Assembly (NCBI GenBank): GCA_964016885.1
Contig: OZ024751.1
Location: 7,006,001-7,070,000 of the forward strand
DNA from: Eledone cirrhosa
Taxonomy: Eukaryota
Length of the DNA stretch: 64,000 bases
Direction: 5' to 3'
Within the stretch, counting starts at the first letter, position 1; each line of letters starts with the position of its first letter. The notes beneath the pieces were generated by a model that worked only from the letters and a program-made list of their open reading frames with translations, made no database searches and was not told the DNA's origin. Below, in pieces: positions 5,407 to 63,263 of this stretch. A program made the translations under genes and the position numbers.

Positions 5407-8074
5407 ATGGATAAACTGGCAACCTTAGCGTCACTGAAGGACATCCCCCTACCTGATAAACGAGAATACACCAGTGATCTCATCAAGAGTACGGACTCCC
5501 CCATCCGTAGGATGAGATGGAAGGCGTTCCACTTCGAAAGAGGAACGCAGAAAACTACCAACACAGAAAACATGGAGTACCTTTTTCAATCAAGGAGGAA
5601 TCCCCCCCCCCCCACAACAGACTAATGGAGGAGTTTGAAAACGAGATGATTAACATCATATCCAACCTCAAATTCTCCGGAAACCCAACCAGAAGTCAGG
5701 AGTACCTCAGACACCTGAGAAACCGGATTACAGTACTTAAAGGGACAACTGGAATACTTGTCCATGCTGACAAAACAAACAACCTCTACAACATGAACAC
5801 TGAACTGTACAATAAGCTAATCCTCAGGGAACTGAGGAAGTGCTACAAAAAAAACACCTGGATTTACCCTGGATGAGATCAATGCCACAGCTTACAGGAT
5901 TATATCCAGAATCGGCATAGAGGACAGGACGGCCCCATACCAACCAAGGGAGCCGCGGCTTACCCTTAAAGACCACAAGTCAAACTTTGAGTCAGACCTC
6001 CATGTGAGACTAATAGCCTCCTCCAGATCTGACCTAGGGATCGTCCGTAAAAGAATACTGGATAGGATTTTGCCCAAGCTTCGGAAGAAAACCAAATTAC
6101 AGCAATGGTCATGCAGAAGAGAAGTAATAGAATGGTTCAAAATACTGTATGAGAAAAGTAGGACCAGCTTTATACAACTGGACATCGCAAGCTCCTCAAT
6201 CTCACCCATAGTACTTAATAGCGATGTCCAATACGGACCTAACCCGAGAGGAGGTGAGCATCATCCACGCCGCAAGAAAGACCTTAATCCGCTTCGATGG
6301 AGACCTTTGGACCAGGAGTGATTGGCCAAATAACTTTGACATCACGATGGGCTCCAGCGACTCAGCGCAGGTAACGGACCTGGTTGGGCTCTACCTGCTG
6401 AAGCAGATAAAAGATGAAATTCTCTGCCTGGGCGGCGGATTATATCGTGACGATGCTCTATTCACAGTACATGACCACAGCACCAATATGTTGGAGGGTA
6501 TGAGGAGGCGTATTCGCCATTTCTTTAAGAACCAGGGGCTCAGCATAGAAATAGACCCAAATAGGAAGGTAGTTAACTTCCTAGACACCACCCTAAACCT
6601 GAACACCGAGCAATACTACCCCTACCACAAGCCCAACGAGAAACTCGTATATGTTAACGCCAAATCAAACCACCCTAGATCCATAACCAAGGCAGTGGTG
6701 AAGAGTGTCTCGGACAGGATCTCCAGCCTGTCCGCAAGTAAGGAAATATTCAACAACCACGCGGAATATTACAACGCAGCTCTAAAGAAGGCGGCACATG
6801 GACAAAATATAACATATAGTCCGAAAAGCCGGGAGGTGGATAGCCCAACAGACACCTACAACCGCGTTGCCAGAGGGGGGAGGGCGAACCCTAGCAATAC
6901 AGGCAGAGCAGAATCAAATAGGCACCATGTACCAGACACCACCACACGGGCGGTGGGGACTAGTGCGCTTGACCACGAGATGGAGCACAATATGAGTAGC
7001 AGTCTCAGGCGTGACGCTAACTACCCCAGGACGGACAACCCCAACCGCAGGACACGTAGGGGGGGGGGGGGAAACGGGCGAACACCCCACGATGGATCTC
7101 CGGGGGCGGACAACAACCATCCCACACATCCGGGCCGCGAAGATAACAAAAAGTATAGAGCTCAAAAGGGAAGCAACAGTGCGGAAACCACCAGCAACCC
7201 AACAAATCTCCAACAAATCACGAAGCCCCCAACCCACACATATCGGAGAAGACACCGACAAATCACGTGGTACAACCCACCCTACTCAGCGGCCCTAAAG
7301 AAAAGCTTGGCCCGATTATTCTTTGGAGCACTTGACAAATGCTTCCCGAGGGACCACAGATACCACAGGATCTTCAACAGACACACTGTGAATCTTTCGT
7401 ATTCCACCACGAGAAATTTGGCCCAACACATAGCTAGCATCAACAGAAGTAGGCTTAAAAACCACACACAACCAGAAGATGGCAATACAAACACTCAGCA
7501 GAACCATGTGAAAGGAGGGAAAGGGGGACCCATAGCCCACCCAAGAAACACAAACAGACCCAAGGACCCCCCACCGAGCATGGGGGAAGACCAACATGTA
7601 ACACATAATGAGAACCCTAATATAGGCACGCAGAGGCCGACCACCCTCTGCAACTGCAGAAACCCCGAATCATGCCCCCTTGGTAATGAATGTCTCAAGA
7701 AGAACCTAGTGTACGGTTGTAGGGTTAAAACCCCCAACTCCGAACACCTCTACATAGGAGACACATCAACGAGCTTTAAGGACCGCTGGTACAACCATCG
7801 CCATTCATTCCAGAAGGAGGCCAAAAGGAAAAGCACAGCTCTCTCCGACCTGATCTGGAAGCTTAAGCTGGACAGGACCCCATACTCTCTGGCCTGGTAC
7901 ATAATCAGGAAAGTACCACCCGATAAAGGGGGATCTTGCATATGCAAACTATGCCTGAACGAGACCCTCGAGATACTAAGAGGTGGAAGCGGCCTGATAA
8001 ACCTCAGAACCGACTTCTTCGGGACATGCAGACACCTTAGAGCCGGGACCTTTCTCAAGATATATGGACAGTAG
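5407..8074 (+). pseudogene. Frameshifted PLE polyprotein: reverse transcriptase + GIY-YIG endonuclease
   Basis: Overlapping ORFs 5407-5625, 5517-5876, 6004-6321 and 6224-8074. Motifs: ADKTNNLY, FDITMGSSDSAQVTDLVG, LYRDD, FLDTTL, YHKP, SNHP, WYNPPY, CNCRNPESC (CxCx5C), LVY..YIG..FKDRWYNH, CKLC, LRTDFFGTCRH. Confidence 0.93.
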
Positions 8075-10626: not shown

Positions 10627-13600
10627 TAAGGAAAAGAGATGAAAACGAAAATGCAACTGGAATCATTTTTTTTTATAATATATATATTTATTTGGTTCCT
10701 CTAACGGTTTCGCAGTGCTTCTGCTTTTCACAAGTGGAGTTGAGATGGAGGGTCTGTGGTTTTTCTCCCATCTGGTTGGTCTTTGAATGTTACTTGTTTT
10801 ATATGGAAAAAAGTGGCTCCAAATGCCAGGTTTTTAGAGAAGTAGTTTGATTGGTTGGTGAATAAGTATAATAAATTTCGCGCCAGTTCGCATTACAAAG
10901 TTTTTCAAACAGAGAGGGCTCAGGTTGTTTTCTTCATATATGAGTGAAGTTTAGTTGGTTGATGCAGTCACGTGAATAAGCACATCAGCCTTCGCGCTAG
11001 TTTGTGTTTGAATTTCTTTTTACTTAAAGAAAAGTGGCCCACGAAGGCTTTTTTTTAAATGTAACTAGATTGGTTATAAATGAAATTTTGACTGACACGT
11101 GAACAAATTCATTAAATTTCGCGCCCATATTTGGGAATTTATTTTGTAGCCTTTTAGAGAATTATGTGCCAAACAAAAAATAATGGTGAAGAAAAAAGGG
11201 ATGGTGAGAGTCGTTCTGAGTAAGACTGATGTGCTGAAATGTAATGTGATTGGTTATGAATGAAATTATGGCTGTCAAGTGAAAAAGTTCATTAAATTTC
11301 GCGCCCGCATTTGGGAATTTATTTTGTAGCCTTTTAGAGAATTTTGTGCCAAACAAAAGATAATGTTCAAGACAAATAGGATGGCGAGAATTGTTCTGGT
11401 TCAGTGAATATGGCTGGTCTGCTGGGGTCTCAAAATTCAGACTTTCTATTGAAATAAAGGAAGTAGAGATATGTATGTTTGTTTGTCTGCTTGTGTGTGT
11501 GGTTGTGTGTGTAGGAAGATGATTCTATTAGTAGAAATGGGGAAGGGAGTTGTGTGTGTGTATGGGTGTTATGTGTGTGTGTGTGTGTATGTGTGTGCGG
11601 GAGTATGGTTGGCATGTTAAAATGGAGAGAACATATATATTTTGTGTGTGTGTGTGTATGTGTGTAGGAAAGTGATTCTATTAGTAGCAATGAGGAGGCA
11701 GTTGTGTGTGTAGTGGCGTGTTATGTGTGTGCGCATGGGTGGTATGTGTGTGTGTGTGTATGTGTGTGTGGGAGTATGGTCAGCATGTTAAGATGGAGGG
11801 AATATATATATTTGTTTGTGTATGTGTGTGTAGGGAATTGATTCCGTTAGTTGAAATGAGGGAGGGAGTTATGTGTGTGTTGGGTGTGCGGATAGGATGT
11901 TAAGGTGTTAGAGTTTTAACGTATGTTGAGGTTTATTTAGTTCTGCTTTTTATTTTCTAAAGTAGAAGGTGTTATGTGTGTGTGTATGTATGTGTCTGTT
12001 TGGATGGTTAGCATGTTATGGTGTTGATATAATGTATATTAAACTATATTTAATGCTGGTCTATATTTTTGAATAAACATATTTTCCTTATTTATTCGTA
12101 TTTGTTCTGTTGTATTGTCAGCGCAAAGATAAAATGGGAAGACTTGGAATGTGGGTGTCTTATTACCTGCGCATATGTCTAGATGTGCACTTAGTGGTAT
12201 CTGTCAAGTGGTTGGATCTCGTAATTGTTGGCGATGAACTGTCATTCTGTTTCTGAGTGTGAGTTTAGTTTGTCCTATATAATCTTCATTGCAACCTTTA
12301 CATGTAATGGCATAAAGCAGATTTTTTGATGAGCAAGTGAAGTGATTTTTACAGCAAAATGTTGTCCTGATTGAAATGTATACGTGTTGCCTTCAATGAG
12401 GTGAGTGCAGGTTCCACAATTAGAACGACCACATTTTTTGACAGTTGGTTGTGTGTTTGTGGTAGGTAATTTGGCATTGGTGAGTAATGTTTTTAGTGAT
12501 TTCGGTTGTCTTTTGCTTTTGATTATATTGTGTGTTTCAATGGTTTTTTTCATTCTTAGGTCTTGTTTCAATAGTGGAATGTTCTTGTGAATCGTGTTGT
12601 AACCTTCCGCATTTCTTCGGTTGTGTGTAGAGATATATGATAGAATATTGGACGTACCTTGAATTTGTTTCTGTTTTCGTAATTCATCAATGCCTATTGC
12701 TTTAGCTCTTTCTAGTCCATTATTTATTATTAATGGTGGGTACTGACTTTCGAGTAAAATTTCATTTAATTCTTGGAGTCTTTTATTTCTCGTTTCATAA
12801 TTGGAGACAATTGTGCAAATTCTTCTTGCTAGGTTAAAAGGGATGTTCGTCTTCGTGTGTTTTGGATGGTTGGAGGTGAATAGCAGGTATTGTTTGGAAT
12901 CTTTTGGTTTCTAGTGTATGTCAGTTTCAATATTGTGTCTTTTTATAAGATTAAGATGTCCAGAAATGGGAATTGATCTTGGCTGTATTCCATTGTGAAT
13001 TGGATGTGGTTATTGATGCCGTTAATTACATTTTTGAAATCATTTAGGTGGTCGAGTGTGTGAGACCAAAGAATGAGACAATCATCCAAGTAGCGTTTCC
13101 AATTCTCTGATAAATATTTGTGGAAGTTCAATCCGTATTCTCTCCATCTTAACATGCTAACCATATTCCCACACGCACACATAACACCCATACACACACA
13201 CATAACACCCAATCAAACACACAACTCCCTTCCCCATTTCTACTAATAGAATCACTTTCCTACACATATAAAAAAAACACAAAATATATATATTCTCTCC
13301 ATCTTAACATGCTGACCATACTCCCACACACACATAACACCCATACACACATACATAACACCCACAGACAAACACAACTCCCTCCCTCATTTCTAGTAAT
13401 AGAATCACTTTCCTACACACATACACACAAAATATATATATATTCTCTCCGTCTTAACGTGAATGCATCAACCTACCAAACTTCACTCAAATATGAAAAA
13501 ACAACCTGAGCCCCCCCCCCCCTTGTTTGTAGAACTGTGAAACACGAACTGGCGCGAAATTTATTATACTTATTCACCAACCAATCAAACTACTTCTCTA

Positions 13601-13872
13601 AAAACCTGGCATATCGAGCCACTTTTTTCCATATAAAACAAGTAACATTCAAAGACCAACCAGATATAAGAAAAACCAGAGACCCTCCATCTCAACTCTA
13701 CTTTTGAAAAGCAGAAGAACTGCGAAACCGTTAAAGGAATCAAATAAATATATAGATTAAAAAAAAAAAAAGATTACAGTTGCATTTCCGATTTCATCTT
13801 TTTTCATTATAATTTCACTCGTGTAGGACACCGGTTACGTTTCATTTTGTTAAAAAAAACCTAACTTTCTAA
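10627..13872 (-). mobile_element. Truncated PLE (Neptune-like) on the minus strand with an inverted plus-strand copy of its 3' region (13136-13872)
   Basis: RT fragment WKRYLDDCLILW..FTMEYSQDQFPFLDILI (12943-13140). Cys knuckle KCGRSNCGTC plus GIY-YIG remnant (12060-12570). Terminal region 10627-10950 is the reverse complement of ~13470-13808. TA runs on both flanks. Confidence 0.88.
13701..13736 (+). ncRNA. Minimal hammerhead ribozyme, U3-A8 core variant (more degenerate minus-strand copy at 10698-10734)
   Basis: ctt-TTGAAAA-gcag-aagaa-ctgc-GAAA-ccgt-TA-aag. Confidence 0.65.
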
Positions 13873-16982: not shown

Positions 16983-19900
16983 AGATGTGTTTATTGAAAA
17001 AACAAACAAAGATTTAATATAAAAAGTCTGTTTGGGAACAGGTTTTGAATTGACCAATAGAAAAGTAGTTAGAGATCAAGTTGAAAGAATAGTGGTAGTA
17101 GAAATTTAATTTAGGGGTAGAGGAGTACAGACTTATGTTTTGAATGAAAACAATACTTTGAATGAAAAGATTACTTTGGGGATGAAAAGATGTCAAGCCA
17201 GTGAAGGGTACACGAAAATTTGATGTTATTAAAGAATAATGTTAAAAATGAAGGAAAATAAAATGTTAGGGTAAGGGTTTTAGTGAGAAATACCAATCTT
17301 TAAACCACAAGGAATCTAAATCTATAACAAAAAATTGAATTAATTGATAGGTATACTTATAGGGATACATTTATATTAATTCATATTAATGTGATAAATA
17401 AGAATTAGATGTTATTAAAGAGTGTTGTTAAAAATGAAGGGTAGTAGTGAGAAAGGCCAATCTTATATAAACTACAAGGTATCTAGATTCATAACTGGAA
17501 ATTGAATTAATTTATAGGTATACTTTTAGGTATTAAATTTAGGAAAAGAGAGCTCTAAGAGGGAAATAAAATTATGAAGTTCTCTGTAGTAAAGTACTAA
17601 ATTACTAGGTTAACTAAATTATAAAAGACTAATTATAATGATATGTAAAATATAAGAGTAACGTGTATATTAATTAGGTTTATAATATTTGAAGGTTCTT
17701 CTATTTCTATGATTGCAAGATATAATTAATTCCTGTCGCTTATTTAATAGGATATCCTTAGATTTCATGATTTCAAAATGTTCCTGGGAGCATAACCTAC
17801 ACTCGTATCTGTTATTTTGATAAGGGGTGGCCCTTTTGAGCACACTCCAGGTCAGGTTGTAATCAATATTCTGCTTTCTATAATTATTAATTGTTTCAGT
17901 TAAGTATAATGATTAGCTAATGCGGCATTTTTACAACTATGTTTGTGGGTATTAAATCTTACATTAAATTGGTTAGACGTAGCTCCTATATATGAATAAG
18001 TGGAGTCCTTAGTGTTAATTTTACATTTATAGACTATGTTATTAATAAGACAATTTCCCTTTAATGGGCAATTTCTTTTGATTCTACAGTTACAACCATT
18101 CGTGAATATTATATCAAGGGAGATAGTCAAATTTGGTGTGGAATTTACTCGACTTGTTATAGGTGAAGTACATGGTGGTTTGTTGCGGTTTATTTTAGTA
18201 TTATCGTTGGTTTGATGTGTTGTTGGTTTATTTGTGTTTTGTTAACATGTATATGCGTTATACGCACTTATATTTTGTTGTATATTTTTGGTAGTGTAGT
18301 AGGAAAATTTGACAGTTGATCTATTTAAAATTTGATGGTATTTATGGTTTGGTGGGAAGTTTTTCTCTAGGATAGTATGACATTTTTTAGGGATATTATC
18401 TTTAATTTGTAGATTAAATCGAGCATTATACCAAGTAACCCGTCTATTACGGTTTCGATATTGTTTTTTATATTTTATTATATATAGTTAGATTAAATGA
18501 TTTAGGTGTTTTAGTCTGATTACTAGGAATTTTGTTAGTAGTGTTGTTAACATGAATTGGAGCATTAGGATGAATGTTTTTTTGAAAGTCATTATATTTT
18601 ATGTGAGAAGAGTTAGAGAAATTAAGTTTTAGGTTGGTATTTTTAGGTGTAGTATGAGTGGCATTTAGGTGTGGGTTTTTCATTTGGTGTTTATTGCTAA
18701 TATTCGATTGTATGTTTGAAGTATTATTGGTGCAAGGTATATAGACTAATTTGTTTTTGTGGCCGCTTCTAGCTAAAGTTTCGTTATAAAAGGGCGCGTT
18801 TTTATTGAATACATCCTTGTTAGATGAAAGGTTAGAGATTCTGAGTGAGATATGATATGCTAGGTTTTTAAGGATAGATCTAGGGTGCTTGGATTGTGAG
18901 TGTATGTAATGTAAGTTTTGGTTAGGTTTATGGTAAGGTTGGTATATACCCGTAGATAGGTCTAAAGTTATATTTAGGAAATTGACTATTTTACTGGTGT
19001 TTTCAAATGTAATAGTGAGATTGTAATAGTCTTTGAGAAAAGTTCTAAGTTTTTTATTTTTTCAATTTCTGATAGGCTAAGGTTAGTGGAAAGAAGAAGA
19101 CAGTCATCACGATATAAACCACCTTTAAGGTGGAGAAAAGATGAATTAATGTTAAATATAAGAAAGAGGCCCACTAGAGCCCATAGTAATGTCGAAGAGA
19201 TTACTATATGTATTTCTGGTCCAGTATTCCTTCTGAAACTCCAGTAGTGTTTGTCTAGCGTGCGTGATAATATTAATGTCATCCATAGTTAAGTTTGATT
19301 TATTTTTGGCAAATATCAAGGCTTTGTTCAGGAGTATGGGTGATATAGAGGAATAATACGCATCTATATCAAATTGTAGAAATGAAGCAGATGATTTATT
19401 TCTAATATTAGTAAACCAGTTAATTACTTGGGATGTCTTTTCCCAGAGTGGTAAGTTAACGTGTTTTCTTAATTGTGGGATGATTCTATCTAAAACAAAT
19501 TACCAATGATGCCAATATCTGACTTGGAAGGGCATATAGAAGGATTAGAGTTAAAGTTAGTTTTGTGATCTTTCAGGTTAAAGTGTGGTTTTTTTCAGTG
19601 CCAAAGGTTCCGTTCTGTCTTCAATAGTGAGTTTATTTACTATGTTCCATGTTTTGTTGTTGATATTGGTAAGAGCCACATTATTTGTTTTTTTAAAATA
19701 ATTTTTCCTGAGTTCTTTATAAATGAACTCATTGTAATTATCACTATCCATGTGATATAGATTTCCAGTTTTGTCTGATTGGACGTGGACTTTGCTAGAT
19801 TGTTTTAGATCCAATAGGGAAATAGTCAAGATCCTTTTGAAAATTAAATTCATATTTCGTAAATCTGAGGTGTTTGATTAAGTTAAATAGGTCTTTCTCG

Positions 19901-22466: not shown

Positions 22467-22847
22467 ATTTAAAGATATCAATATATTAAAATCAAGTGGA
22501 TAAGATTGTCATGGAAATTAGTAGAAATATTATAAGTATAATTATAATTTATATATATGTGCTGTAAATCAGTTATAAACATTTATATTCGTCTGACTTC
22601 CAAACAAATTAAATACCTCTTATACTTATATATATATATATAAGGGCGGGTAAAATTCCCGAGATCCATGGACGCGTTCTCTCCAGCGGTCTCTGTCCCT
22701 CATCATCGCTGCCATGTACAACCTCACCATCTACAACCATTTGACACACATCCCTGCTAACCATTATCACAACATCGAACACCTTACTACTACTACTACA
22801 CACACACACACACACACACACATATTTGTTGTGAAAGAGTCATTTCT

Positions 22848-23351
22848 CAGTCTTGGCGCAAAATCAATTTTTTATTCACATGACCTCTACCGACCAATCA
22901 AAATTGTTTTGACCACAAGAATTTTTGCAAACACCAAGTAGCGCTGGAGCCACTTTTTTAACATAAAAACAGTCTTGGCGCAAAATCAATTTTTTACATT
23001 CACATGACCTCTACCGACCAATCAGAATTATTTTGACCACAAGAATTTTTGCAACACCAAAGTAGCGCTGGAGCCACTTTGTTAACATAAAAACAGGTAG
23101 AATTCCCAAAACTAATAAGATCAGAGCAAACATCACGGACACTCTATCTCAAAATTATTTTTGAAAAGTATTTAGAAATGCGCAACCGGTAAAAAACTTA
23201 AAAACTTAAAACCACAACTGAATACTAACCCATACAATTACTAATAGTCTTTTATTCCTAATGAAACCATTTTCAACTGTGAACAATTTGTCAGCATTTT
23301 CTATTCCGTTTACCAATATATAATAACTTGTGTGTTACACCTCTATTCTTT

Positions 23352-28398: not shown

Positions 28399-28564
28399 TA
28401 TCTATATATATATGTGTTTAAACTTATATCTTAGTTCCTTGTTCTATTCTTTTAAAGTTTTATTTTAGTTTCTTGTCCTGTATTTTTAAAGGTTTATATT
28501 CCAACAATATTACTTTTTTTTTGCTGTACGCATTTTTCTATCTGGTATATATATATATATATAT

Positions 28565-29328
28565 AAAGAAAAAGAGATGAAATCGAAAATGCAACTGGAG
28601 TCTTATTTTTTTTAAAAATATATATATTTATTTGGTTCCTTTACCGGTTTCGCAGTTCTTCTGCTTTTCAAAAGGTGAGTTGAGATGGAGGGTCTGTGGT
28701 TTTTTTCACATCTGGTTGGTCTCTGAATGTTACTTGTTTTATATGGAAAAAGTGGCTCGAAATGCCAGGTTTTTCGAGAAGTAATTTGATTGGTTTGTCA
28801 ATAATTATAATAAATTTCGCGCCAGTTCGCGTTACAATAGTTCTTCAAATAAGAGAGGGGGGGGGGGGTTGTCACAGGTTGTTTTTTCATATATGAGTGT
28901 TTGAATTTCTTTTTATTTGAAAGTAAAAAGAAATTCAAACACTCATATATGAAAAAACAACCTGTGACAAACCCCCTCTCTTATTTGAAGAACGATTGTA
29001 ACGCGAACTGGCGCGAAATTTATTATAATTATTGACAAACCAATCAAATTACTTCTCGAAAAACCTGGCATTTCGAGCAACTTTTTCCATATAAAACAAG
29101 TAACATTCAGAGACCAACCAGATGTGAGAAAAACCACAGACCCTCCATCTCAACTCACCTTTTGAAAAGCAGAAGAACTGCGAAACCGGTAAAGGAACCA
29201 AATAAATGTATATATTTAAAAAAAAAATAAGACTCCAGTTGCATTTTCGATTTCATCTCTTTTTCTTTATACTTTCACCCGTGTAGGACACCTCGGTTAT
29301 TTTTCATTTTGTAAAAAAACCCTCACCC

Positions 29329-29333
<5 letters not shown>
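28565..29333. mobile_element. Fold-back (palindromic) pLTR of the Neptune-like family with two oppositely oriented U3-A8 HHRs
   Basis: 28565-~28912 is the reverse complement of ~28926-29270, followed by an extra 3' tail to 29333. (TA)n on both sides; homologous to 13490-13872. Confidence 0.88.
29158..29195 (+). ncRNA. Minimal type I hammerhead ribozyme, U3-A8 core (identical minus copy at 28638-28675)
   Basis: cctt-TTGAAAA-gcag-aagaa-ctgc-GAAA-ccgg-TA-aagg. Palindromic stem III ACCGGT, GUA triplet, AATAAA shortly downstream. Confidence 0.8.
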
Positions 29334-29384
<51 letters not shown>

Positions 29385-34187: not shown

Positions 34188-34252
<65 letters not shown>

Positions 34253-34258
<6 letters not shown>

Positions 34259-34865
34259 CGTAAAATAAGAAAATTATAAAATTAACTTACTTACTAAAAT
34301 TTCACTCCCAACTAATTTGTTTCTGAAAGGGAATAAACATACTTTCCGAAGAAGTGTACAGAGAAGCCTTTCGTCATCAGGGAAGTCTATTCTCAGCTAA
34401 GTTTCCAGGCAATACGTGGACACTGGGAACTTATACAAAAATAATTCAGTGGATAGAAAAAAGCAAAGCGTGGACTAAATTCCTAGCCATTGAGAAAATC
34501 ACTGCCTACTGCGTCGGTGGCAAATTCAAAAGAATCAATCACGTAACATCGAGGTCAATCAGTGGAAAGTGGTTTGTTAAGAAGACAGCAGCCTGACTGT
34601 TACCATAGCAGCAGTCTTGGCCAATTTTTCTCGACAAATAATTTGGAGATAATTATAAAGAATTAGTATATCTAGTAACATATATATACACACAGATGCA
34701 TACCTATGCTAGCAAATATATATGTTTTGTCTTAGTAACTTTGTGGTTCAATGCATGGGGTTGCAGAACAATAATATGAGAGACGTAAAATAAGAAAATT
34801 ATAAAATTAACTTACTTACTAAAATTTCACTCCCATTTTAGTAAGTAAGTTAATTTTATAATTTA
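34253..34865 (-). mobile_element. Non-coding HHR element, 525 bp monomer plus partial repeat and small inversion; diverged relative of the 563 bp array
   Basis: gagacgtaaaataagaaaa repeated at 34255 and 34780; inversion at 34836-34865. Shares gaatagacttcc-CTGATGA-cg, cagtgtcc.cg.attgcctgga.actta.ctgagaatag and ttgttctgca with the 60404 array; abuts (TA)n. Confidence 0.85.
34304..34386 (-). ncRNA. Type I hammerhead ribozyme
   Basis: acttcc-CTGATGA-c-gaaagg...cctttc-a-GAAA-caaattag-TT-gggagt. Confidence 0.8.
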
Positions 34866-42310: not shown

Positions 42311-42780
42311 TGGTTACTATAACCTCAGGACAGCTATCAAGTCTCTCACTGGTACTGCTAGACAGGTTTACTAGGTGGGACGGAATTATAATGAGACCCT
42401 TTTAAGAGGTTGTAGTAATCAACCGAGTATATCTTACAGTGACGTGTCAACAAGTGGGGGGCCAAAATACTAAAGAAACTACCACGAAATAATAATTCAG
42501 AGTCCCGAGACTAATAAGAAATAATGGTTTCTACCCTAGGCACAAGACCAGCAACCACCCAGTGCAAAAAATAAACTAATACGAAATAATAATTCAGAAT
42601 CCCGAAAAAGAATACTAATACTATCTCTAAGGGTGCCGCTACGATACAAAAAATCTAGTGCAAACTACATAAATGCTCGTACGAAGTATATGAAAAATTT
42701 GATACGGAAAATTAATTCAGAATCATTCCCCCCCCCCCCCCCCCCCAAAAAAAAAATACCTGATACTCAAAACCTCACCA

Positions 42781-44174
42781 ATGTCCAGTAGTGCTACGTT
42801 TAATATTCTGATCGCAGATTTGGTACGAGCGATGAAGAATGTGTCCCGCATGTGCGACCCAACAGAAATGGAAAGACACATCCAACACTTCATCAACCGC
42901 ATGCAGTTCTCTGGCTACAACCAACGAGACAGAGTCAGAGTATACGAAGGAGCCATGGAGAAGTATAAGACCCTCATAGAACTCGACATGAAAGCAATTT
43001 GCCCATTATACAGGAGCAAATCCTGGAATAGCATAGATAGGGCTAGACATAAGATAGGGAAAGCCACCTCATGGTACGACAACCAGAGATACCAGAGTGT
43101 CATGTTTGTGGATGCTACCTCTGGAGGGAAATTAGCTAACCAGTGTAGAAAGGCCCTGAGAAAGACCCACTTAATGATTAAGGTGGTAGAAAAGCCAGGA
43201 ACCACCATAAAATCCCTGATCAGCAAAACCTACCCTTTTAAGAAAACCCACTGTACTAATAGGAAATGTATCATATGTAAGGTAACCCCCACCCCCGATA
43301 AACTGTAAAACTAGAAACGTAGTCTATAGCATAATATGTACAGAGGGTACTTGCAGAAACATGACAACAACATACATAGGCGAAACAGCTCGTAGCATAG
43401 GTGAAAGGATAGACCAACACTGGGGGGAACTAAAAGGACGAAAAAACGGGTCAGTACTATACGAACATATCAGACAACAACACGACGGTAACATAGACAA
43501 CAGAGAAATTAGAATAATATCTAAGCATAGAAATGACCCAGCAGATAGGCAAATCAGAGAGGCCAGGGAAATAGAACTTAGAAGGCCAAGACTAAACAGA
43601 AAGAATGAATGGAATAACAACAACACCCAAACAAACAACACTGACCTAAGAGAAGTATAAATAAATAAAAAATAGATAAATAAATACATACACAAGCACA
43701 ATAACAACAAACAGATATAAACACACACTAGTAAACATAGAATACATTAACCAATACACAGTCACCCAATCACGAACACACATCAAACAAAACACTATAC
43801 ACACACGCAAACGCATGCGCAAAGAAGACACAATAAAATAAACAAACAAACAAATAAATAAATAAATATATAAACAGACTAAATAAAGATGGCGTAGAAA
43901 TACAATGCAACGTGAGGAATCTATAGCACCACTGACGATGTTGCAGATGTGCAACGAAAGAACTTTGATAAACTATATATATCTGTTTGTGTCTATATTG
44001 TATCTGTATTATTTTTGACCGTTGGTCAGTCAATGGCAACATTGAGGACCGAATAAATTAGATTACCGATATAAAAGACACAGAAGAGAAAAGGGAAAAC
44101 CAACCAAACAGTGAGTGTGTTCTGTTATTAATTAATTCTGGCAATATTACACAAATATGACCCTCCCCAAGTAT

Positions 44175-44353: not shown

Positions 44354-44439
44354 AGGAGGTGAGTTTTATTGTAGTACAATAAAGCAATGCAGATATCGGA
44401 TAAGAAGCACTCTACAGTTTGTATGACTGGAGTATACAT

Positions 44440-44747
44440 AATATATAAGAACAAAAGATGGTTAAAAGAGTTCCATGTATTTTATTATGCGCATTTCAAA
44501 AACAAATATCATCATGCAATAATATTTGTGTTTTCATCAGATAAAACAGGAGGACAAGATATGAAGGTTAAAAAACACTTGTGGATAGTTCAGTTTTAAA
44601 ACTGAACTATCCACAAGTGTGTTTTAACCTTCATATCATGTCCTCCTGTTTTATCTGATGAAATCATAAATATTATTGCATGATGATATTTGTTTTTGAA
44701 ATGCGCATAATAAAATACATGGAACTCTTTTAACTATCTTTTGTTCT

Positions 44748-44755
<8 letters not shown>
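44440..44755. mobile_element. Spacerless ~316 bp palindrome of a pLTR end with two opposite HHRs (44479-44547 minus, 44648-44716 plus)
   Basis: Centre gtggatagttcagtttt|aaaactgaactatccac. Plus HHR: gttttat-CTGATGA-[aaatattat/atgatattt stem]-GAAA-tgcgca-TA-ataaaat. Same family as 54371-54525. Confidence 0.88.
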
Positions 44756-44826
<71 letters not shown>

Positions 44827-45432: not shown

Positions 45433-46290
45433 TAATAAAATAATTCCAACTTCGTCTGATTCACTCGTTTTATTTACAATCCTTTAAAATTTATAATGGT
45501 ATTAGAATGAAATAGTATGGTAGAATATTAAATGTTAAGTGTTAATTGAACATGTACTTTCATGCTTTAGCAATCTTCAGGTTCATAATGTGTGGTGACA
45601 GTCAAGTTTGCAATTTTCAACTGTAATTTGATGGTTAAATTTTGTGCCTTATATACAGTGAAAAGTGGCTCCAGAATGTTAAATCTTGCAAACTGTATTT
45701 CGACCAATCGGTGTGTAGTTTCACTGGATTACTAAAGCTGATAGGTTTAGGCGTCACCGTTGGTTGAGCATGTCTAACGACTACTAATTGACCCTATCCA
45801 AAGCATCAATTGTTTTGCTATTTTTAGAAATGATGAAAATAGCATTTTCTAGTAATCATCACCATCAACATCAGTTTTATTATTATTATTATTGTTGTTG
45901 TTGTTGTTAGTGGTCGTATTCATAGTTATAGTAGGATTAATATCCCATTATTATTGTTCATTTAACTTGGGTTTGAATTTATCAATAACATTCTTTTCTT
46001 TGATTTTTCTCTTGATTTCACTTAGGCTGTGTAATTTGTAGAATGGGAATATTATAAATATTCCCTGACCACATGTTGCTAGATGGTTACCGAGGGGTAT
46101 CTGACGGACATTTGGGTCTCTGATTTGCTGTCGGTGTACCCGTGCACGTTCCGATAGTGCATTTCCAGTTTGACCGACATACAGTTCTTCAAAATTCGGG
46201 CATTTAATGCAGTAAATTAGATTTCTGCTTTTGCAATTGATATTTGCATTTGGCATTGGGGTCAATTTAATTGACTTTCCTTTTAAAGAA
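45432..46290 (-). mobile_element. Neptune-like PLE 3' fragment: GIY-YIG + pLTR with a degenerate HHR (45548-45594)
   Basis: NCKSRNLIYCIKC..LYVGQTGNALSERARVHRQQI..HLATC..KFKPKLN. gaac-CTGAAGA-t-tgc-taaa-gca-t-GAAA-gtacat-gttc (U16.1 lost). Confidence 0.85.
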
Positions 46291-46347
46291 TGGAAAAATA
46301 TTCCCATATGTGTGTATATATATGTATATATATGTGTGTGTGCATGT

Positions 46348-46402
<55 letters not shown>

Positions 46403-48932
46403 TTTACTACTAAGCAATACAATACAATTGCGAATACAAGCGGTAGAGGGCATAGGTTTGACACTAGGGTGTTGCTCTGGGTTGATAGACGACATCTGCG
46501 AATTAAAATTAAGAGATCATTGTTCTGATACTGCTGCAGATAGTCGGAATGTTTATGGAAAGAATCGTTCGGTATATCCTAATGACAAATCCACCCGGCT
46601 GTAGACCCTGCTGTTGACCACGAGTACTATTGTGCAGCATGATTCATCCAGTGTAGTGTATGTGTTGTTGAGCACGGTCACGTGTTCTTAATTCCTAATG
46701 GTTGAGTGAAGAGATTTTATTATATAGCGAGGAAAGAGCTTGCCCGATCTATCTGATGAGAAGCGCCTACAACGTGTGAATCAATTTGAAGCACTGAATA
46801 CATGGCAACACCAAGCACGTGTGTTGGACGGAAGTAATACTTGAAGTGAGAAATGGGTACTTTTCTCAACACCGAGTTCCGTCGCCTGTCTCTTAAACAC
46901 CCAGATATATCTTATTGAGCGGACATCTCTATTAAAAATATGTTCATAATGTGATTACCTGCATAACCAAATCTGCCCGTTTGGCAAAATAGTTCATTCA
47001 TTTCCTTGTCGTATATCAGGGCTGAGACAGGGGATTCAGATTATTCTTCATCTAGGGCAGGAGACGGTGAAGTTGTATTGCATTATATGTTTATATATTT
47101 GCTTTCTGTAAGCAAAACTGCAATCGTATGTATTTTTATGGCGTGAAAATTACAGAAACCTCAACCTTATTGATTTTACTATCGGAAACCGAAGAATGTT
47201 TAAATATCATATCTGACAGATAATCTATGAAATATGTAAGACATTTTTTTGTGTCTGGTGAATACATTGCCAATATCGACTAACGTCACAACGTATTACG
47301 ACTGCTCATGTCAGAGTATAAATACAATAACATTTTGCTATTTCCTTAAAATACATCTTCCATTCTTACGGGAATTCAACAGTAAGGAGATAAATATTAT
47401 AGACAATTTCAATTGAAGATATCGAGTACAAATAGATGTATACGTCACTGTGTGCATATGGTGCCATATGTAACGTGCATTGAATTCAGACTATTTTTAA
47501 ATGCAGCTACTTAAAACTTTATACAAGTAGTATAGTTTCAATCCATGTGATTTCAACATGCAATTACGTTATTATATAAGGTTTATCCCTGTACTGATAT
47601 AGTAAAATCAGCCATTAGGGTGATTGGGATGCCCCCAAAATGGTGCGTCCCATCAAATCTTTTGTCGTATAACGGCTGACCAGATGGTAAACAATATCAA
47701 CAAGATCAACACACTTTACGAACATGTTATATGAAAATTGAATTTGAAATTGTTTGAATTTAAAAACGAAATGTCCAATATAGTTGTTCGGTGCGTAGTA
47801 AGGATGCAATGTATACAGTGACATTAATGACAAGTAAATACCTATGAATATTCAAACAAATCTTCACGATTCCTCAAAATGATTTCACATATTGATGTGA
47901 CAAACAGGTGCAGCACAGCATGGTTTTCAATCCCACTACCTGCAAAGTCGGATCTTCAATATTGTTACTGACTCTCAAATAATGTCTAGGAATTAGATGT
48001 GTTTGCAACCGCTATTAAAAAATCATGGAAGAAGAATGGCTCACTTATGAACAAATCATGCAAATGAAGCATCGGTACGAAATATTGTTATCATTATTAC
48101 TTTCCAATAACACATACAATCTATATATTGGACTAAAATGCGCCGTTAAAGACATTCCGTGCTCTTCGTTAGCTATTTTCATATATTTCATATGAAGCCA
48201 ATTGTGTGCGTGTGTACGTGTGCGTATGTGTGTGTGTATACACGAAGATTCACTCTCCCCGTCTCCTCCTCCTATGTTTTCCTTGCTGGCCCCTTACGTC
48301 CTGAAAACTCAACAATTATAAAAGGTCAGATATATATTCTGTGAAAAATTCTACTATAAAAAGCTCTAAAATTATACGATAATTAGGATTAAAAAAATAT
48401 CCGTCTAACAAACAATGTTGAATCCGATATATCAACGCCTTTAGTAAAAGAGCAACAAGGAAAAAAAAATTGATATTGACTTTCGCATGATGTACCGTAC
48501 GAGTGCATGTTGCCAGTAGAAAAGATTGAAATCAGCAGAAACAAACTGAAAGAAAAATAGACACGAAAATAAACAAAATCGTGGTTTAGCAGATTTACTA
48601 TATTGGAGAGTTGGGGAATAGAAAAAATTGAAAACAACCAAAAGTACATGGTCTTATATCATATAATTATATTGTACACATTTGCTTGCGATAAAAATAT
48701 TGAGTGTGCAATAAATATGCCAACCACTTTCATTTTATTGCTAACAATATTTATCATAAATAAAATAAAATGAAGATAGAAGAAACAACTATTGAAAGAA
48801 AATATACATGGAAAGTGACTTGTAGAGGGAAAAGCAAGACATAATTAGATCAAATAACATTCTTTGATGCTGCCACGAAAATAAAATGAAATAATAGTAG
48901 AGATTATTTAAGAAACATATACGTGCACATAC

Positions 48933-54370: not shown

Positions 54371-57209
54371 AAGATCAAAAGATGGTTAAAAGATTTCCAA
54401 GTATTTTATTAGGCGTATTTCAAAAACATATATCATCATGGGATGATATCTGCGTTTTCATCAGATAAAATAGGGCTACATGATATGAAGCTTAAAAATC
54501 ACTTGTGAATAGTGAAGTTTTAAATCAACATATGAAAAATAATATAAGATTGATGTATGAGATTGGGAAAAAGTGAGGAGAGGGTTGGAAAAGGTAAGGA
54601 AGAGGAGGAGTTGAGAGTAAAGAATGGTGGGGGAGGAGTATAAGAAGGAAGGGTGAGTGAGGAGGAGAGATGGGTGTTAGAGAGAGTGAGATAGCCTTTA
54701 CAACTGAGAAAAAAAATATATTGTCTCACAGAGAAAAGTTAAAAAACCGTTGGAAGATAATAGATAATTTAAAGCAAATTGAAATTAAAAGGTAATGAAG
54801 TTTATGCATGAAGAGAAAAGGGATTAAGAATAATATTAAATTAAGGTTTGTATATTGAAGGGTTTAATAATATGTGCGAGGAAAAGAAATTATTAATATG
54901 TATTATTAAAATAAAAATATTAATGTTATTAAGGATATAATGTAAAAAGAAATAGAAGAATGAATGAGTTATGAATTTAGAGGAATTAGTTAGTGTTTAA
55001 GTTTGTTTTTATGTAATGTAATATGTGTGCGTAATATATGTACGTAAATAGTTTGTTTAAAAATGAGCGCAGAAAGCAAAGAAGAATAGAATGTTTAAGG
55101 AAGAAAATATCTAACATCAAAAAATATATATGTTTACAAAATATTTTCTAATGGTAATAATATAATACATTAAAAGAAATTAGTTAGGGTTTAAGTTTGT
55201 TTTTATGTATTGTAATATGTAAAAGTCAAACGAGCATGAAAAGAAGAGATAAGTAATTTACGGAAGAAAAATCTAACGTAAAAAAAAATATTTATGTTTA
55301 CGAAGGACTATTAAAGGTAATACTATAATGTATTAAAACAAAAATTATAATTTTTATGGCCAATGATATGAAGAAAGATGGAAGAATGGATAATGTTGTG
55401 GTGAATAATAATAAGAATTGAGAAGTAGTTAGGAAGAAGAAGTACAGATTAGAGGTTAGAAATTAAAAAGAAAAGAGGAAAAAAGGAGAGTGATAAAGAG
55501 GAATGATATAGAATGAGTAACTTGTATTATATAATAAATAATACATAATATTGAAATAAGGTAGAAAGATGGGATTTTAAACTAGTAAGATATTAGATAT
55601 TAGCTGTATACTTTATGGAATTTTCCGTGGAATTTATGCAAGCAGAGAGAAAATAAATCAGTGCGTCTATTTATTATAGAATTGAAATTAGATATAATGA
55701 TACATTTCTCAGATAGACAAAGATTACATGTTCTGAATAGGGAGGCATTCGAGTAGGGAGAGGCAGAACAAACTTTTCTCCAAGAGATGTTATAGTTAAT
55801 ATTTTTGTTTTCAAGAACCATATGAGTTCTGAGAGTGCCGTGTTAATTCTTTAAGTTGGTATTTAAAAGACGAATTGTGATTATAAAATCTAGCTTTGAA
55901 GGAGGTGGAAGTGGAACCGAAATAGGTAAAGGAATTGGTATCAGTTATAACCTTACTTTCATAGACTAAGTTTTTATCAAGACAATGGTTATTGAGAGGA
56001 CATTTAGTTCTAACAGGGCAATTAAAATTGCGATTAGAGAAATTAACAGAGTTATTACCAAGTGACCTAGTGCTATTTATAGCAGGAATTGGATTTGAGA
56101 AATTATTTAGGATAGGAATAATAGTTTCCTGATTTAGATTGGTATTATGAACATTAAAGAAGTTACGTTTGACGTCATATTTGGGTTTGCAGAATCTAGC
56201 CTAGAGTTAACAATGACGTCGGGAGTACTATTACTATTATTATGTTGGAAGGAAGAGATTTAGTATTTAGTATTTTATTGTTGTGTTTAGAGATAATGTT
56301 GGAGATGTTGGAGGAGGTCGAATAGGAAAATGTTATAGTGTGGTTGTTAAATATTTTACTATAGATATGTGAGGGAGGGAAGCATTTATCTAAGGCCCTA
56401 AAGAATAGTTTAGGAATATTATTATTAATAGAAATAGCGAAAGGAGCATTATACGAAATTATGTTTTTGTATCTAGGTCTTTTATTTAAGTTATTGGAAT
56501 GATCATAATTAATTATTTTACTGTAAGACCTTCTAGGATTGGTTTCTTTACTGTATTTAATTTTATCAGGATAACCGGCTTTAGAAAGCGCGTTATTATA
56601 GTAATTGGCGTTAGCATCAAATATATTTTATTAGAGGATAGGTTTGATATTCTTTTTCCAATATTACTGACTATAGCATTTTTAATGTTAGTGGGGTGGT
56701 TAGATTTAAAATTAACATAATTTAGATTCTCATTGTGTTTATGGTAAGGGTAATATAGGTCAGTGTCAAGATTAAGGGATATATATCCAAGAAATTAGCT
56801 AGTTTAACGTTGTTATCAAATTCGATTTTAAGATTATGTTGCTTAAATAGATCACGTATATTGTTCTTAATAATATTAAGGTTAACTAAATTCCAATTTA
56901 AGATAGTAAAAAGTCAATCGTCACGATAAATTCCACCGCGAACTGAGGAATTTTCCGATTTAAAGAATTAAAAATAAAAATACCAATCAAATCAGTCAAT
57001 TGCGATGAATCGGAAGCACCCACTGTGATATCAAAGTTGTTGGAAGTATCGGCTCTAGTCCAGTATTCTTTCACATTATATCCTTAATAACATTAATATT
57101 TTTATTTTAATAATACATATTAATAATTTCATTTCCTCGCACATATTATTAAACCCTTCAATATACAAACCTTAATTTAATATTATTCTTAAACCCTTTT
57201 TCTCTTCAT
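54371..57209 (-). mobile_element. Degraded Hydra-like PLE (minus) with an HHR-bearing 3' end and a small inverted duplicate (57073-57209)
   Basis: Remnants NFDITVGASDSSQLTDLIG, GGIYRDD, CNLCLSEKCII..INRRTDLFSLCLH. 57073-57209 is the reverse complement of 54807-54943. Terminus at (TA)n. Confidence 0.88.
54402..54472 (-). ncRNA. Type I hammerhead ribozyme
   Basis: tattttat-CTGATGA-aaacgcagatatcat-cccatg-atgatatatgttttt-GAAA-tacgcc-TA-ataaaata. Stem III palindrome eroded relative to the 44648 copy. Confidence 0.68.
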
Positions 57210-60248: not shown

Positions 60249-60287
<39 letters not shown>

Positions 60288-60294
<7 letters not shown>

Positions 60295-63217
60295 TAATTT
60301 AATATATCAACTAACATAAGCGCACAGATGCACGCCCATGCCAGCAAATACACAGGTTATGTCATAGTACCTAGGTGGTTCAATGCAGGAGAATGCAGAA
60401 CAATTGTTCTGCATTCTCCTGCATTGAACCACCTAGGTACTATGACATAACCTGTGTATTTGCTGGCATGGGCGTGCATCTGTGCGCTTATGTTAGTTGA
60501 TATATTAAATTATCTATATTTATCTCCAAATCACTGATTTGTCGAGCAAACTTGTCAAAACCACTTCTAAAAAAATTTTTTTTGGGGTGTTAGTAGGCGT
60601 CAGTCATCTTACCATCCCATTCCTTCTAACTAGCCTCTGTGTCACGTGATTGATTCTTTAGAATCGGCCATTTGACTTGAAGCAGTGAGAATTTCGGTAC
60701 ATTGAATTCAGTCCTCGCAAGCTGTTCGATCTACCGAATTATTATTATTTTTATATGAGCCGCCAGTGTCCGCGCATTGCCTGGAGACTTAACTGAGAAT
60801 AGACTTCCTGATGACGCAATGAATTCTCGACAGTTGGATTACATAACTGTCTTTATCCCATTGCAGAAACTAATTAGTTGGAGTGAAAATTTAAGTAAGA
60901 AAAAAATTTTTTTTTTTTTAAATTTTTTTTAAAGAAATATTTTCTTATTTTACGTCCTTTATATTATTGTTCTGCATTCTCCTGCATTGAACCACCTAGG
61001 TACTATGACATAACCTGTGTATTTGCTGGCATGGGCGTGCATCTGTGCGCTTATGTTAGTTGATATATTAAATTATCTATATTTATCTCCAAATCACTGA
61101 TTTGTCGAGCAAACTTGTCAAAACCACTTCTAAAAAAATTTTTTTTGGGGTGTTAGTAGGCGTCAGTCATCTTACCATCCCATTCCTTCTAACTAGCCTC
61201 TGTGTCACGTGATTGATTCTTTAGAATCGGCCATTTGACTTGAAGCAGTGAGAATTTCGGTACATTGAATTCAGTCCTCGCAAGCTGTTCGATCTACCGA
61301 ATTATTATTATTTTTATATGAGCCGCCAGTGTCCGCGCATTGCCTGGAGACTTAACTGAGAATAGACTTCCTGATGACGCAATGAATTCTCGACAGTTGG
61401 ATTACATAACTGTCTTTATCCCATTGCAGAAACTAATTAGTTGGAGTGAAAATTTAAGTAAGAAAAAAATTTTTTTTTTTTTTTTTTAAATTTTTTTTAA
61501 AGAAATATTTTCTTATTTTACGTCCTTTATATTATTGTTCTGCATTCTCCTGCATTGAACCACCTAGGTACTATGACATAACCTGTGTATTTGCTGGCAT
61601 GGGCGTGCATCTGTGCGCTTATGTTAGTTGATATATTAAATTATCTATATTTATCTCCAAATCACTGATTTGTCGAGCAAACTTGTCAAAACCACTTCTA
61701 AAAAAATTTTTTTTGGGGTGTTAGTAGGCGTCAGTCATCTTACCATCCCATTCCTTCTAACTAGCCTCTGTGTCACGTGATTGATTCTTTAGAATCGGCC
61801 ATTTGACTTGAAGCAGTGAGAATTTCGGTACATTGAATTCAGTCCTCGCAAGCTGTTCGATCTACCGAATTATTATTATTTTTATATGAGCCGCCAGTGT
61901 CCGCGCATTGCCTGGAGACTTAACTGAGAATAGACTTCCTGATGACGCAATGAATTCTCGACAGTTGGATTACATAACTGTCTTTATCCCATTGCAGAAA
62001 CTAATTAGTTGGAGTGAAAATTTAAGTAAGAAAAAAATTTTTTTTTTTAAATTTTTTTTAAAGAAATATTTTCTTATTTTACGTCCTTTATATTATTGTT
62101 CTGCATTCTCCTGCATTGAACCACCTAGGTACTATGACATAACCTGTGTATTTGCTGGCATGGGCGTGCATCTGTGCGCTTATGTTAGTTGATATATTAA
62201 ATTATCTATATTTATCTCCAAATCACTGATTTGTCGAGCAAACTTGTCAAAACCACTTCTAAAAAAATTTTTTTTGGGGTGTTAGTAGGCGTCAGTCATC
62301 TTACCATCCCATTCCTTCTAACTAGCCTCTGTGTCACGTGATTGATTCTTTAGAATCGGCCATTTGACTTGAAGCAGTGAGAATTTCGGTACATTGAATT
62401 CAGTCCTCGCAAGCTGTTCGATCTACCGAATTATTATTATTTTTATATGAGCCGCCAGTGTCCGCGCATTGCCTGGAGACTTAACTGAGAATAGACTTCC
62501 TGATGACGCAATGAATTCTCGACAGTTGGATTACATAACTGTCTTTATCCCATTGCAGAAACTAATTAGTTGGAGTGAAAATTTAAGTAAGAAAAAAATT
62601 TTTTTTTTTTAAATTTTTTTTAAAGAAATATTTTCTTATTTTACGTCCTTTATATTATTGTTCTGCATTCTCCTGCATTGAACCACCTAGGTACTATGAC
62701 ATAACCTGTGTATTTGCTGGCATGGGCGTGCATCTGTGCGCTTATGTTAGTTGATATATTAAATTATCTATATTTATCTCCAAATCACTGATTTGTCGAG
62801 CAAACTTGTCAAAACCACTTCTAAAAAAATTTTTTTTGGGGTGTTAGTAGGCGTCAGTCATCTTACCATCCCATTCCTTCTAACTAGCCTCTGTGTCACG
62901 TGATTGATTCTTTAGAATCGGCCATTTGACTTGAAGCAGTGAGAATTTCGGTACATTGAATTCAGTCCTCGCAAGCTGTTCGATCTACCGAATTATTATT
63001 ATTTTTATATGAGCCGCCAGTGTCCGCGCATTGCCTGGAGACTTAACTGAGAATAGACTTCCTGATGACGCAATGAATTCTCGACAGTTGGATTACATAA
63101 CTGTCTTTATCCCATTGCAGAAACTAATTAGTTGGAGTGAAAATTTAAGTAAGAAAAAAATTTTTTTTTTTTTTTTTTTTAAATTTTTTTTAAAGAAATA
63201 TTTTCTTATTTTACGTC

Positions 63218-63224
<7 letters not shown>
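60288..63224 (+). mobile_element. Five near-identical ~563 bp non-coding HHR monomers in tandem, preceded by a 116 bp spacerless inverted copy: retrozyme-like array
   Basis: Units start at 60404, 60967, 61535, 62096 and 62658 and appear to differ only in poly-T length. Palindrome centre gcagaacaa|ttgttctgc; (TA)n on both flanks. Confidence 0.93.
60803..60884 (+). ncRNA. Type I hammerhead ribozyme (identical copies at 61366-61447, 61934-62015, 62495-62576, 63057-63138)
   Basis: acttc-CTGATGA-c-gcaatg-aattctc-gacagtt-ggattacat-aactgtc-tttatcc-cattgc-a-GAAA-ctaattag-TT-ggagt. Palindromic stem III ACTAATTAGT, GUU triplet. Confidence 0.87.

Positions 63225-63263
<39 letters not shown>

What the first reader, a model, noticed from the sequence alone, without database searches (positions are those of the whole stretch)
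28638..29195. Natural U3-A8 core hammerhead fixed in a Neptune-like PLE lineage
Seen: the core reads UUGAAAA instead of CUGANGA at 28638, 29158 and 13701, and in a divergent relative at 23158 whose stem II differs (gtattt/aaatgc versus gcag/ctgc) but keeps the ACCGGT stem III palindrome. Established: positions 3 and 8 form a tertiary Watson-Crick pair, and U3-A8 is a tolerated, rarer compensatory variant. Inference: the double change plus stem II turnover indicates selection for activity, and CUGANGA-based searches would miss this family entirely.
Basis: partly seen in the sequence, partly recalled or inferred. Interest (0 to 1): 0.7.

Follow-up and report, generated by a model that had tools for sequence, protein, structure and literature searches.

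The report
Penelope hammerheads with altered catalytic cores
The motif is the end piece of an abundant Penelope-type jumping gene and carries a predicted self-cutting RNA whose U-A core pair is already published; the new part is a sister family of over 6,000 copies with a further change at a normally fixed core base, whose RNA likely is still cut at the predicted site now and then.

Summary
Mostly real, mostly known. The motifs at 29158-29195 and 28638-28675 are the two arms of one head-to-head end-fragment (pLTR) of a Neptune-type Penelope-like retrotransposon. The hammerhead-shaped motif with UUGAAAA core has 11,539 exact copies in the genome. U3-A8 is in print, with the same UUGAAAA in Schistosoma PLEs, and this scan has reported it on other DNA. 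Corrections: 13701 has a broken palindrome; the four sites are three insertions; stem II differs by one pair. Against flanks of 33-68% identity, 16 of 17 core bases and two compensatory pairs are kept between families whose proteins are 57.5% identical, which supports selection. Nearly all copies come from uncut RNA. A few chimeric copies join ORF or rRNA fragments at the predicted cut, in both families, a weak genomic record of cleavage. No cleavage or RNA data exist here.

The parts
28916..29335 (+). Right arm: 3' pLTR fragment of family A, ending in the tail and (TA)n
28562..28922 (-). Left arm: inverted pLTR fragment of the same insertion, ending at the short end and (TA)n
29158..29195 (+). 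Family A minimal type I hammerhead motif; U3 29162, A8 29167, ACCGGT 29185-29190, predicted cut after 29191
28638..28675 (-). Identical hammerhead motif in the inverted arm; U3 28671
29119..29123 (+). CAGAT: hot spot of 5' ends of copies, inferred transcription start, 43 nt upstream of U3
29272..29335 (+). Tail present on one arm only; 29271 and 29335 are the inferred two reverse-transcription start sites
   Evidence: model from PMC11167929
10627..13870 (-). Second family A insertion: truncated RT/endonuclease body with sense 3' pLTR and inverted 5' pLTR
12275..12910 (-). PLE ORF fragment (thumb, linker, CX4CXXC) in sense with the 3' hammerhead
13701..13736 (+). Family A motif with U3/A8 but broken helix III palindrome (ACCGTT)
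10698..10735 (-). Unreported fifth motif, degenerate (G3, ACCGTT)
22737..23350 (+). Solo pLTR of family B between microsatellites
23158..23194 (+). Family B motif: U3 23161, A8 23166, C13 23183, predicted cut after 23191; private C-to-T in stem II at 23169

Best explanation
The motif is a minimal hammerhead-shaped RNA with the published U3-A8 core in the end repeat of a Neptune-type Penelope-like retrotransposon, predicted to fold for cutting only when two copies pair through ACCGGU, and likely cutting only a small share of transcripts. Shown: position in the pLTR, copy numbers, fixation of U3-A8, and C13 in sister family B. Inferred: transcription starts about 43 nt upstream of U3; reverse transcription starts 80 and 144 nt downstream of the cut (family A); two primings on mostly uncut RNA give the head-to-head pairs in (TA)n; occasional cleavage after GUA leaves a free 5' end that is joined to other RNA fragments and copied into the genome. 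In the tandem, full-length arrangement the cut would remove the capped leader or an upstream co-transcript about 200 nt before ORF1. Family B (U3-A8-C13) is likely a weaker version of the same ribozyme. The copy at 28562-29335 is a truncated by-product with no ORF.
For: Copy numbers. ORFs upstream of the motif in sense, RVT_1 plus C-terminal GIY-YIG. Families A and B: 57.5% protein identity over 433 aa; 16 of 17 core and helix III bases identical against 30/44 and 30/49 upstream and 28/84 downstream, binomial p 0.008-0.02 at 66-70% background. Compensatory pairs: helix I pair 3 C-G vs U-A, helix II pair 4 G-C vs U-A with a U.C state in subfamily C. The A1 cofold minimum-energy structure has the intermolecular ACCGGU helix, both stems II and stem I. 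No variant at >=3% in the core in two deep contig sets for A or in four sets for B. ORF-fragment junctions: 8 of 10 events in B and 2 of 2 in A have a junction interval containing the predicted cut; 4 of the 8 came from a search that fixed the position, 4 of 6 from one that did not (p 0.008-0.02). 28S and 18S rRNA fragments lie at the cut in both arms of two insertions. Published in vitro data for another PLE: uncut RNA is the dominant template and cleavage needs the element's protein (passages).
Against: No cleavage assay and no RNA reads. Monomer folding is not better than shuffles (z -0.3 to -1.1). Copies starting at the cut are rare (65 for A, 23 for B under a filter that passes under half) and the position profile is a broad 2.5-fold rise, not a spike; in A the position two bases downstream is as high (13 vs 14 among the first 100 of 366, read by eye). 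None of those 100 is a perfect palindrome centred on the cut, whereas start-site palindromes are common. A-rich microhomology blurs junctions. In A2, C, B and B2 a hairpin burying U3-A6 is favoured over stem I, which is only 3 pairs. U3-A8 was not rescued in one deep mutational scan. A13 changes are recalled as strongly inactivating in minimal hammerheads (Ruffner 1990, recalled, not read).
Confidence: 0.7

Rival explanations
1. Family A is an active U3-A8 hammerhead, but family B lost catalysis with A13C and spread anyway, because cleavage is not needed for insertion.
For: All GAAA in the published PLE table. B has only three A-U pairs in helix I and a stronger competing hairpin. Hammerhead mutants insert normally in vitro; Naiads lack hammerheads and thrive.
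Against: B and B2 (90-94% endonuclease identity) keep every other core base and stem II while flanks drift. Junction intervals in B converge on the cut. Cut-start copies per exact copy do not differ between A and B (65/11,539 vs 23/6,168, p 0.09).
Confidence: 0.3
2. Family B RNA is cut in trans by the A-lineage ribozyme: both share ACCGGU, so a heterodimer could pair A's catalytic strand (A13) with B's cleavage strand.
For: Identical helix III palindrome and A17 in all subfamilies; would explain cut marks in B despite C13.
Against: Helix I in such a heterodimer has only two A-U pairs (sequence). It does not explain why B keeps its own U3-A9, G12, A14 and stem II.
Confidence: 0.1
3. Neither family cuts: the motif is a relic kept for another job (downstream promoter element, RNA pairing or protein binding), and the boundary excess reflects A/T microhomology.
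For: The whole 44 nt after the start site is fairly conserved (30/44); the boundary profile is broad; no RNA evidence.
Against: Conservation peaks on the catalytic bases; compensatory pairs sit in helices I and II; two clean junctions without microhomology lie exactly at the cut (L135, L140), though these were found by a search fixed on that position.
Confidence: 0.15

Closest known systems
U3-A8 minimal hammerheads of Schistosoma mansoni Cercyon PLEs (Cervera and De la Pena 2014, PMC4209133; parts 1-2 of 4 and supplement part 2 of 3 read)
   Same: Same UUGAAAA core, place in the pLTR, type I layout, palindromic helix III, predicted dimer; about 1,300 hits there.
   Different: No extra base between A9 and G10.1; 6-nt ACCGGU helix III; short stem II; Neptune-type host element; at least 11,539 copies; sister family has C13.
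Natural U3-A8 core covariants (Perreault et al. 2011, PMC3088659; passages and part 3 of 8 read)
   Same: C3-G8 to U3-A8 seen in nature and cited there as active in vitro.
   Different: The A13 change is not among the variants named in the text I read (they name A6C, A6a, U13a, U15.1-A16.1); Figs 5, S6 and S7 were not visible to me.
Poseidon element PAc of Anolis (PMC11167929; passages)
   Same: Two reverse-transcription starts define the tail; uncut RNA is the template; hammerhead lies upstream of the starts.
   Different: Canonical C3-G8 core; ORF starts inside the hammerhead there, about 200 nt downstream here; no RNA ends found at the cut there.
Neptune clade PLEs (Craig et al. 2021, PMC8557442; passages and supplement passages)
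   Same: C-terminal GIY-YIG, CX2-5CxxC linker with long spacer, CCHH, (TA)n targets, inverted 5' copy, tail; the ac-cg-gt helix III is also listed for a Chlamys hammerhead.
   Different: Core variants are not reported in their hammerhead table (all ctgaNga / gaa).

Membership tests
Hammerhead ribozyme (type I, minimal) | Core C3 U4 G5 A6 N7 G8 A9 or the 3-8 covariant | tested here: met
   U3-A8 covariant in A, C, B, B2; variant in print
Hammerhead ribozyme (type I, minimal) | G12 A13 A14 A15.1 | tested here: met
   Family A and C: GAAA
Hammerhead ribozyme (type I, minimal), family B only | A13 | tested here: not met
   C13 in 6,168 exact copies; 10 A, 11 G, 23 T; 30 of 30 B2 copies
Hammerhead ribozyme (type I, minimal) | Helices I and II, G10.1-C11.1, U16.1-H17 | tested here: met
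   A1: 4+4 pairs; B: 3+5 pairs; GUA triplet. Helix I is weak outside A1.
Hammerhead ribozyme (type I, minimal) | Palindromic helix III allowing a dimer | tested here: met
   ACCGGU duplex in cofold of all five subfamilies; broken in window copies 13701 and 10698
Hammerhead ribozyme (type I, minimal) | Site-specific self-cleavage | not testable with these tools
   Needs a bench assay; genomic junctions are suggestive only
Hammerhead ribozyme (Rfam families) | Hit to an Rfam hammerhead model | tested here: not met
   No hammerhead family at E<=10 on 131-nt stretches of either family
Penelope-like element, EN+ | RT with DKG motif and C-terminal GIY-YIG; pLTRs, tail, inverted 5' copy | tested here: met
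   L161, L064, L068 ORFs; L157 has a direct 5' pLTR before ORF1
Neptune clade | CX2-5CxxC linker with long spacer before the endonuclease, CCHH present, (TA)n target | tested here: met
   24-residue spacer like the Neptune rows and unlike the 6-residue Nematis rows, compared by eye
Neptune clade | Placement in an RT tree with reference elements | not tested
   No named reference sequences were available as tool inputs; homologues carried no clade names

The most novel reading that the evidence does not exclude
Family B is a natural, active hammerhead with a triple-changed core (U3, A8, C13): once position 8 is A, the invariant A13 becomes dispensable, and the genome records its cleavage as ORF and rRNA fragments ligated onto the 5'-OH product and then retrotransposed.
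Probability: 0.4. Interest if true: 0.62.

Novelty: new variant of a known kind. Interest (0 to 1): 0.38.

Why it matters
The U3-A8 claim adds one more host to a published variant. The sister family matters more. If U3-A8-C13 cuts, the hammerhead core consensus is looser than assumed, an 8-13 coupling becomes testable, and descriptors that require GAAA miss thousands of motifs. If it does not cut, it is a natural knockout: a PLE that reached over 6,000 young copies without a working ribozyme, which bears on the open question of what PLE hammerheads are for. Either outcome is decided by one simple assay on two sister sequences.

Tried and rejected
Rfam on the whole window gave microsatellite-driven miRNA hits only among the 150 of 239 rows shown; a MALAT1 hit at E 2.3 is taken as chance. 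No RNA holder listed, so expression was not tested. A canonical-core ancestor inside the lineage was sought: 106 CTGAHGA..GMAACCGGTH sites genome-wide (control 9). One A-related hit (L152) has C3-G8, but the 25 motifs parsed from the 30 loci of its nearest relatives all have U3 and 24 have A8, so it is a private change. L153 and L154 sit at junctions. An alternative register restoring GAAA in B was considered and rejected by sequence. Single-strand folding z-scores were uninformative. Rfam did not identify the GC-rich donor in L316 and missed the rRNA fragments when whole loci were given. Sequence look-ups in earlier findings returned nothing. Lunse 2017, Przybilski 2007, Nelson and Uhlenbeck 2008, Martick and Scott 2006 and Scott 2013 were not held; they may report A13 or U3-A8 data. 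The supplement of PMC9901934 was listed but not read; one supplement file of PMC4209133 could not be searched. Searches for A13C in hammerheads found nothing relevant, which covers only the open library.

Full report
Observation. The window lies at G000:C11:7006001-7070000 in a 3.0-Gb genome; the taxon was not determined. At 29158-29195 (+) the sequence reads as a minimal type I hammerhead with U3 and A8, a 4-pair stem II, GAAA, the palindrome ACCGGT and a predicted cut after GUA at 29191; 28638-28675 (-) is identical. The two are arms of one inverted insertion, 28562-29335, between (TA)n runs. The 13701 copy has ACCGTT and belongs to a second insertion, 10627-13870, whose other arm holds an unreported degenerate copy at 10698-10735. 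The 23158 copy is a third insertion and reads GCAA where GAAA is expected.

Family sizes. The 30-mer of family A occurs 11,539 times exactly, its reversed control 0 times. The family B 31-mer with C13 occurs 6,168 times; with any other base at 13, 44 times (10 A, 11 G, 23 T). An older subfamily B2, 90-94% identical to B in most endonuclease matches, has C13 in 30 of 30 central copies. Subfamilies A1, A2 and C have A13. Of 112 motifs parsed from the loci held at that point, all but four have U3 and all but three have A8. Canonical cores with the same helix III number 106 in the genome, mostly one unrelated family. Contigs of runs X1 and X4 show no core variant at 3% or more for A (one X6 contig differs at 29180-29182), and four runs of three coded organisms show none at C13 for B.

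Host element. [quoted passage not shown] The CX4CXXC linker is followed by a 24-residue spacer, as in the Neptune rows and unlike the Nematis rows of the published alignment (compared by eye). With (TA)n targeting this makes 'Neptune-type' well founded, though no tree was built. L157 is a near full-length B element with a direct 5' pLTR; ORF1 starts about 200 nt after the predicted cut.

How copies are made (inferred). Head-to-head pairs cluster at one spacing: 10 pairs at exactly 81 nt among the first 100 B matches and 7 pairs at 79-84 nt among the first 100 A matches. In 20 such pairs that I picked, the arms begin at or just inside CAGAT, 43-44 nt upstream of U3, the likely transcription start. 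Copies end 80 or 144 nt after the cut in A (29271, 29335), matching the two reverse-transcription starts shown for another PLE. Copies that contain the intact motif must come from RNA uncut at that motif, so cleavage is not a step in making them.

Selection. A and B proteins are 57.5% identical over 433 residues. Between them 16 of 17 core and helix III bases are the same, against 30/44 and 30/49 upstream and 28/84 downstream (p 0.008-0.02 at 66-70% background). Helix I pair 3 and helix II pair 4 change on both sides. Cofolding gives the dimer hammerhead for A1; in A2, C, B and B2 helix III forms but a hairpin over U3-A6 replaces helix I.

Is it cut in the animal? Prompted partly by earlier notes on other genomes, I counted copies that begin at the predicted cut: 65 for A and 23 for B under a three-base filter. 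A position-blind filter gave 366 matches for A (first 100 read by eye) and 100 for B (all fetched). Apparent starts from +4 back to -10 were 12,13,6,14,13,8,6,11,2,1,4,2,4,4 for A and 3,2,6,19,12,16,8,6,4,2,8,8,2,4 for B, the fourth value being the cut. After removing internal indels and paired arms by eye, the three positions at and just upstream of the cut hold 27 against 11 expected (A) and 32 against 12 (B); this is not corrected for A/T microhomology, and no perfect cut-centred palindrome was seen in A. Sharper is the class where a sense fragment of the element's own ORF is joined upstream, because the donor is known. In B the junction intervals (0 = first base after the cut) are [0,0], [0,0], [0,3], [0,1] from the fixed-position search and [-1,2], [-1,0], [-1,0], [-3,1], [3,7] and one at -1 with an extra base from the blind search: 4 of 6 blind events hold the cut (p 0.008-0.02). 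In A, L126 is [0,2] and L337 [-2,0] (30 of 65 loci and 20 hand-picked of 100 examined). A 28S fragment (E 9.5e-25, with a 3-base overlap) and an 18S fragment (E 0.0015) sit at the cut in both arms of one A and one B insertion. Ligation of RNA fragments to a 5'-OH end, or template jumping from it, would give this (inference). The signal is small and similar in both families.

Prior art. U3-A8 was reported in nature in 2011 and in PLE hammerheads in 2014, where a descriptor with this core gave about 1,300 hits; the supplement lists the same UUGAAAA and a U3-G8 state, and GAAA in every row. A deep scan of one hammerhead found only G3-C8 to rescue (passages). I found no report of a natural C13 core in three searches of the open library; five relevant papers were not held. 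This scan has reported U3-A8 PLE hammerheads in other genomes and in other families of this genome; none of the 16 notes shown mentions A13C.

Verdict. The headline is a real but published variant, worth about 0.2 alone. The fixed U3-A8-C13 sister family, with weak genomic signs of cutting, is an apparently undescribed variant and a ready natural experiment. Interest 0.38; novel case probability 0.4, interest 0.62 if true.

Noticed in passing
L157:4707-4773 (-), L158:2552-2618 (+): Family B has a 455-codon ORF1 overlapping the RT frame by 66 nt in the -1 frame, with a T TTT TTA slippery-type site; ORF1 with a frameshift is mentioned for PLEs in PMC8557442 Fig. 1 legend.
   Followed up: partly
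L107/L108 and L146, at the predicted cut: The same unidentified donor ending in CGTCTCAACCT is joined to the cut site in one family A and one family B insertion.
   Followed up: no
L142/L143:1400-1503; L316:1-232; L343: Other foreign pieces at or beside the cut: an unidentified fragment of about 60 nt in both arms, a GC-rich stretch, and a poly(A)-ended stretch.
   Followed up: partly
window 29150-29165, 23149-23164: A conserved UCAA upstream can pair with U3-U4-G5-A6; this hairpin needs U3 and would bury the core, a possible off switch.
   Followed up: partly
window 29010-29050, 22850-23050: TTTCGCGCC-type and CCAAT boxes upstream of the inferred start, repeated in family B; likeness to E2F and NF-Y sites is recalled, not tested.
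   Followed up: no
window 9291 (+), 36894 (+), 44540 (-): Canonical-core hammerhead candidates of other families from my scan; 44433-44762 is another fold-back.
   Followed up: no
window 5511-8074 (+), 17900-19499 (-), 42703-43660 (+), 45951-46403 (-), 55811-56627 (-): Further Penelope-like RT or GIY-YIG ORF fragments (recognised by eye).
   Followed up: no
window 60284-63225: Five tandem units of about 563 bp, 99% identical, starting from a palindrome at 60284-60523, with a 70% relative at 34188-34799.
   Followed up: no
G000, one search list (L069-L096): A low-copy canonical hammerhead family (CTGATGAT ... GAAACCGGTC) shares the ACCGGT helix III with families A and B.
   Followed up: no
L152 (G000:C4:334381319-334381348): A single subfamily C copy with both C3 and G8, a private double change among U3-A8 relatives.
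   Followed up: yes
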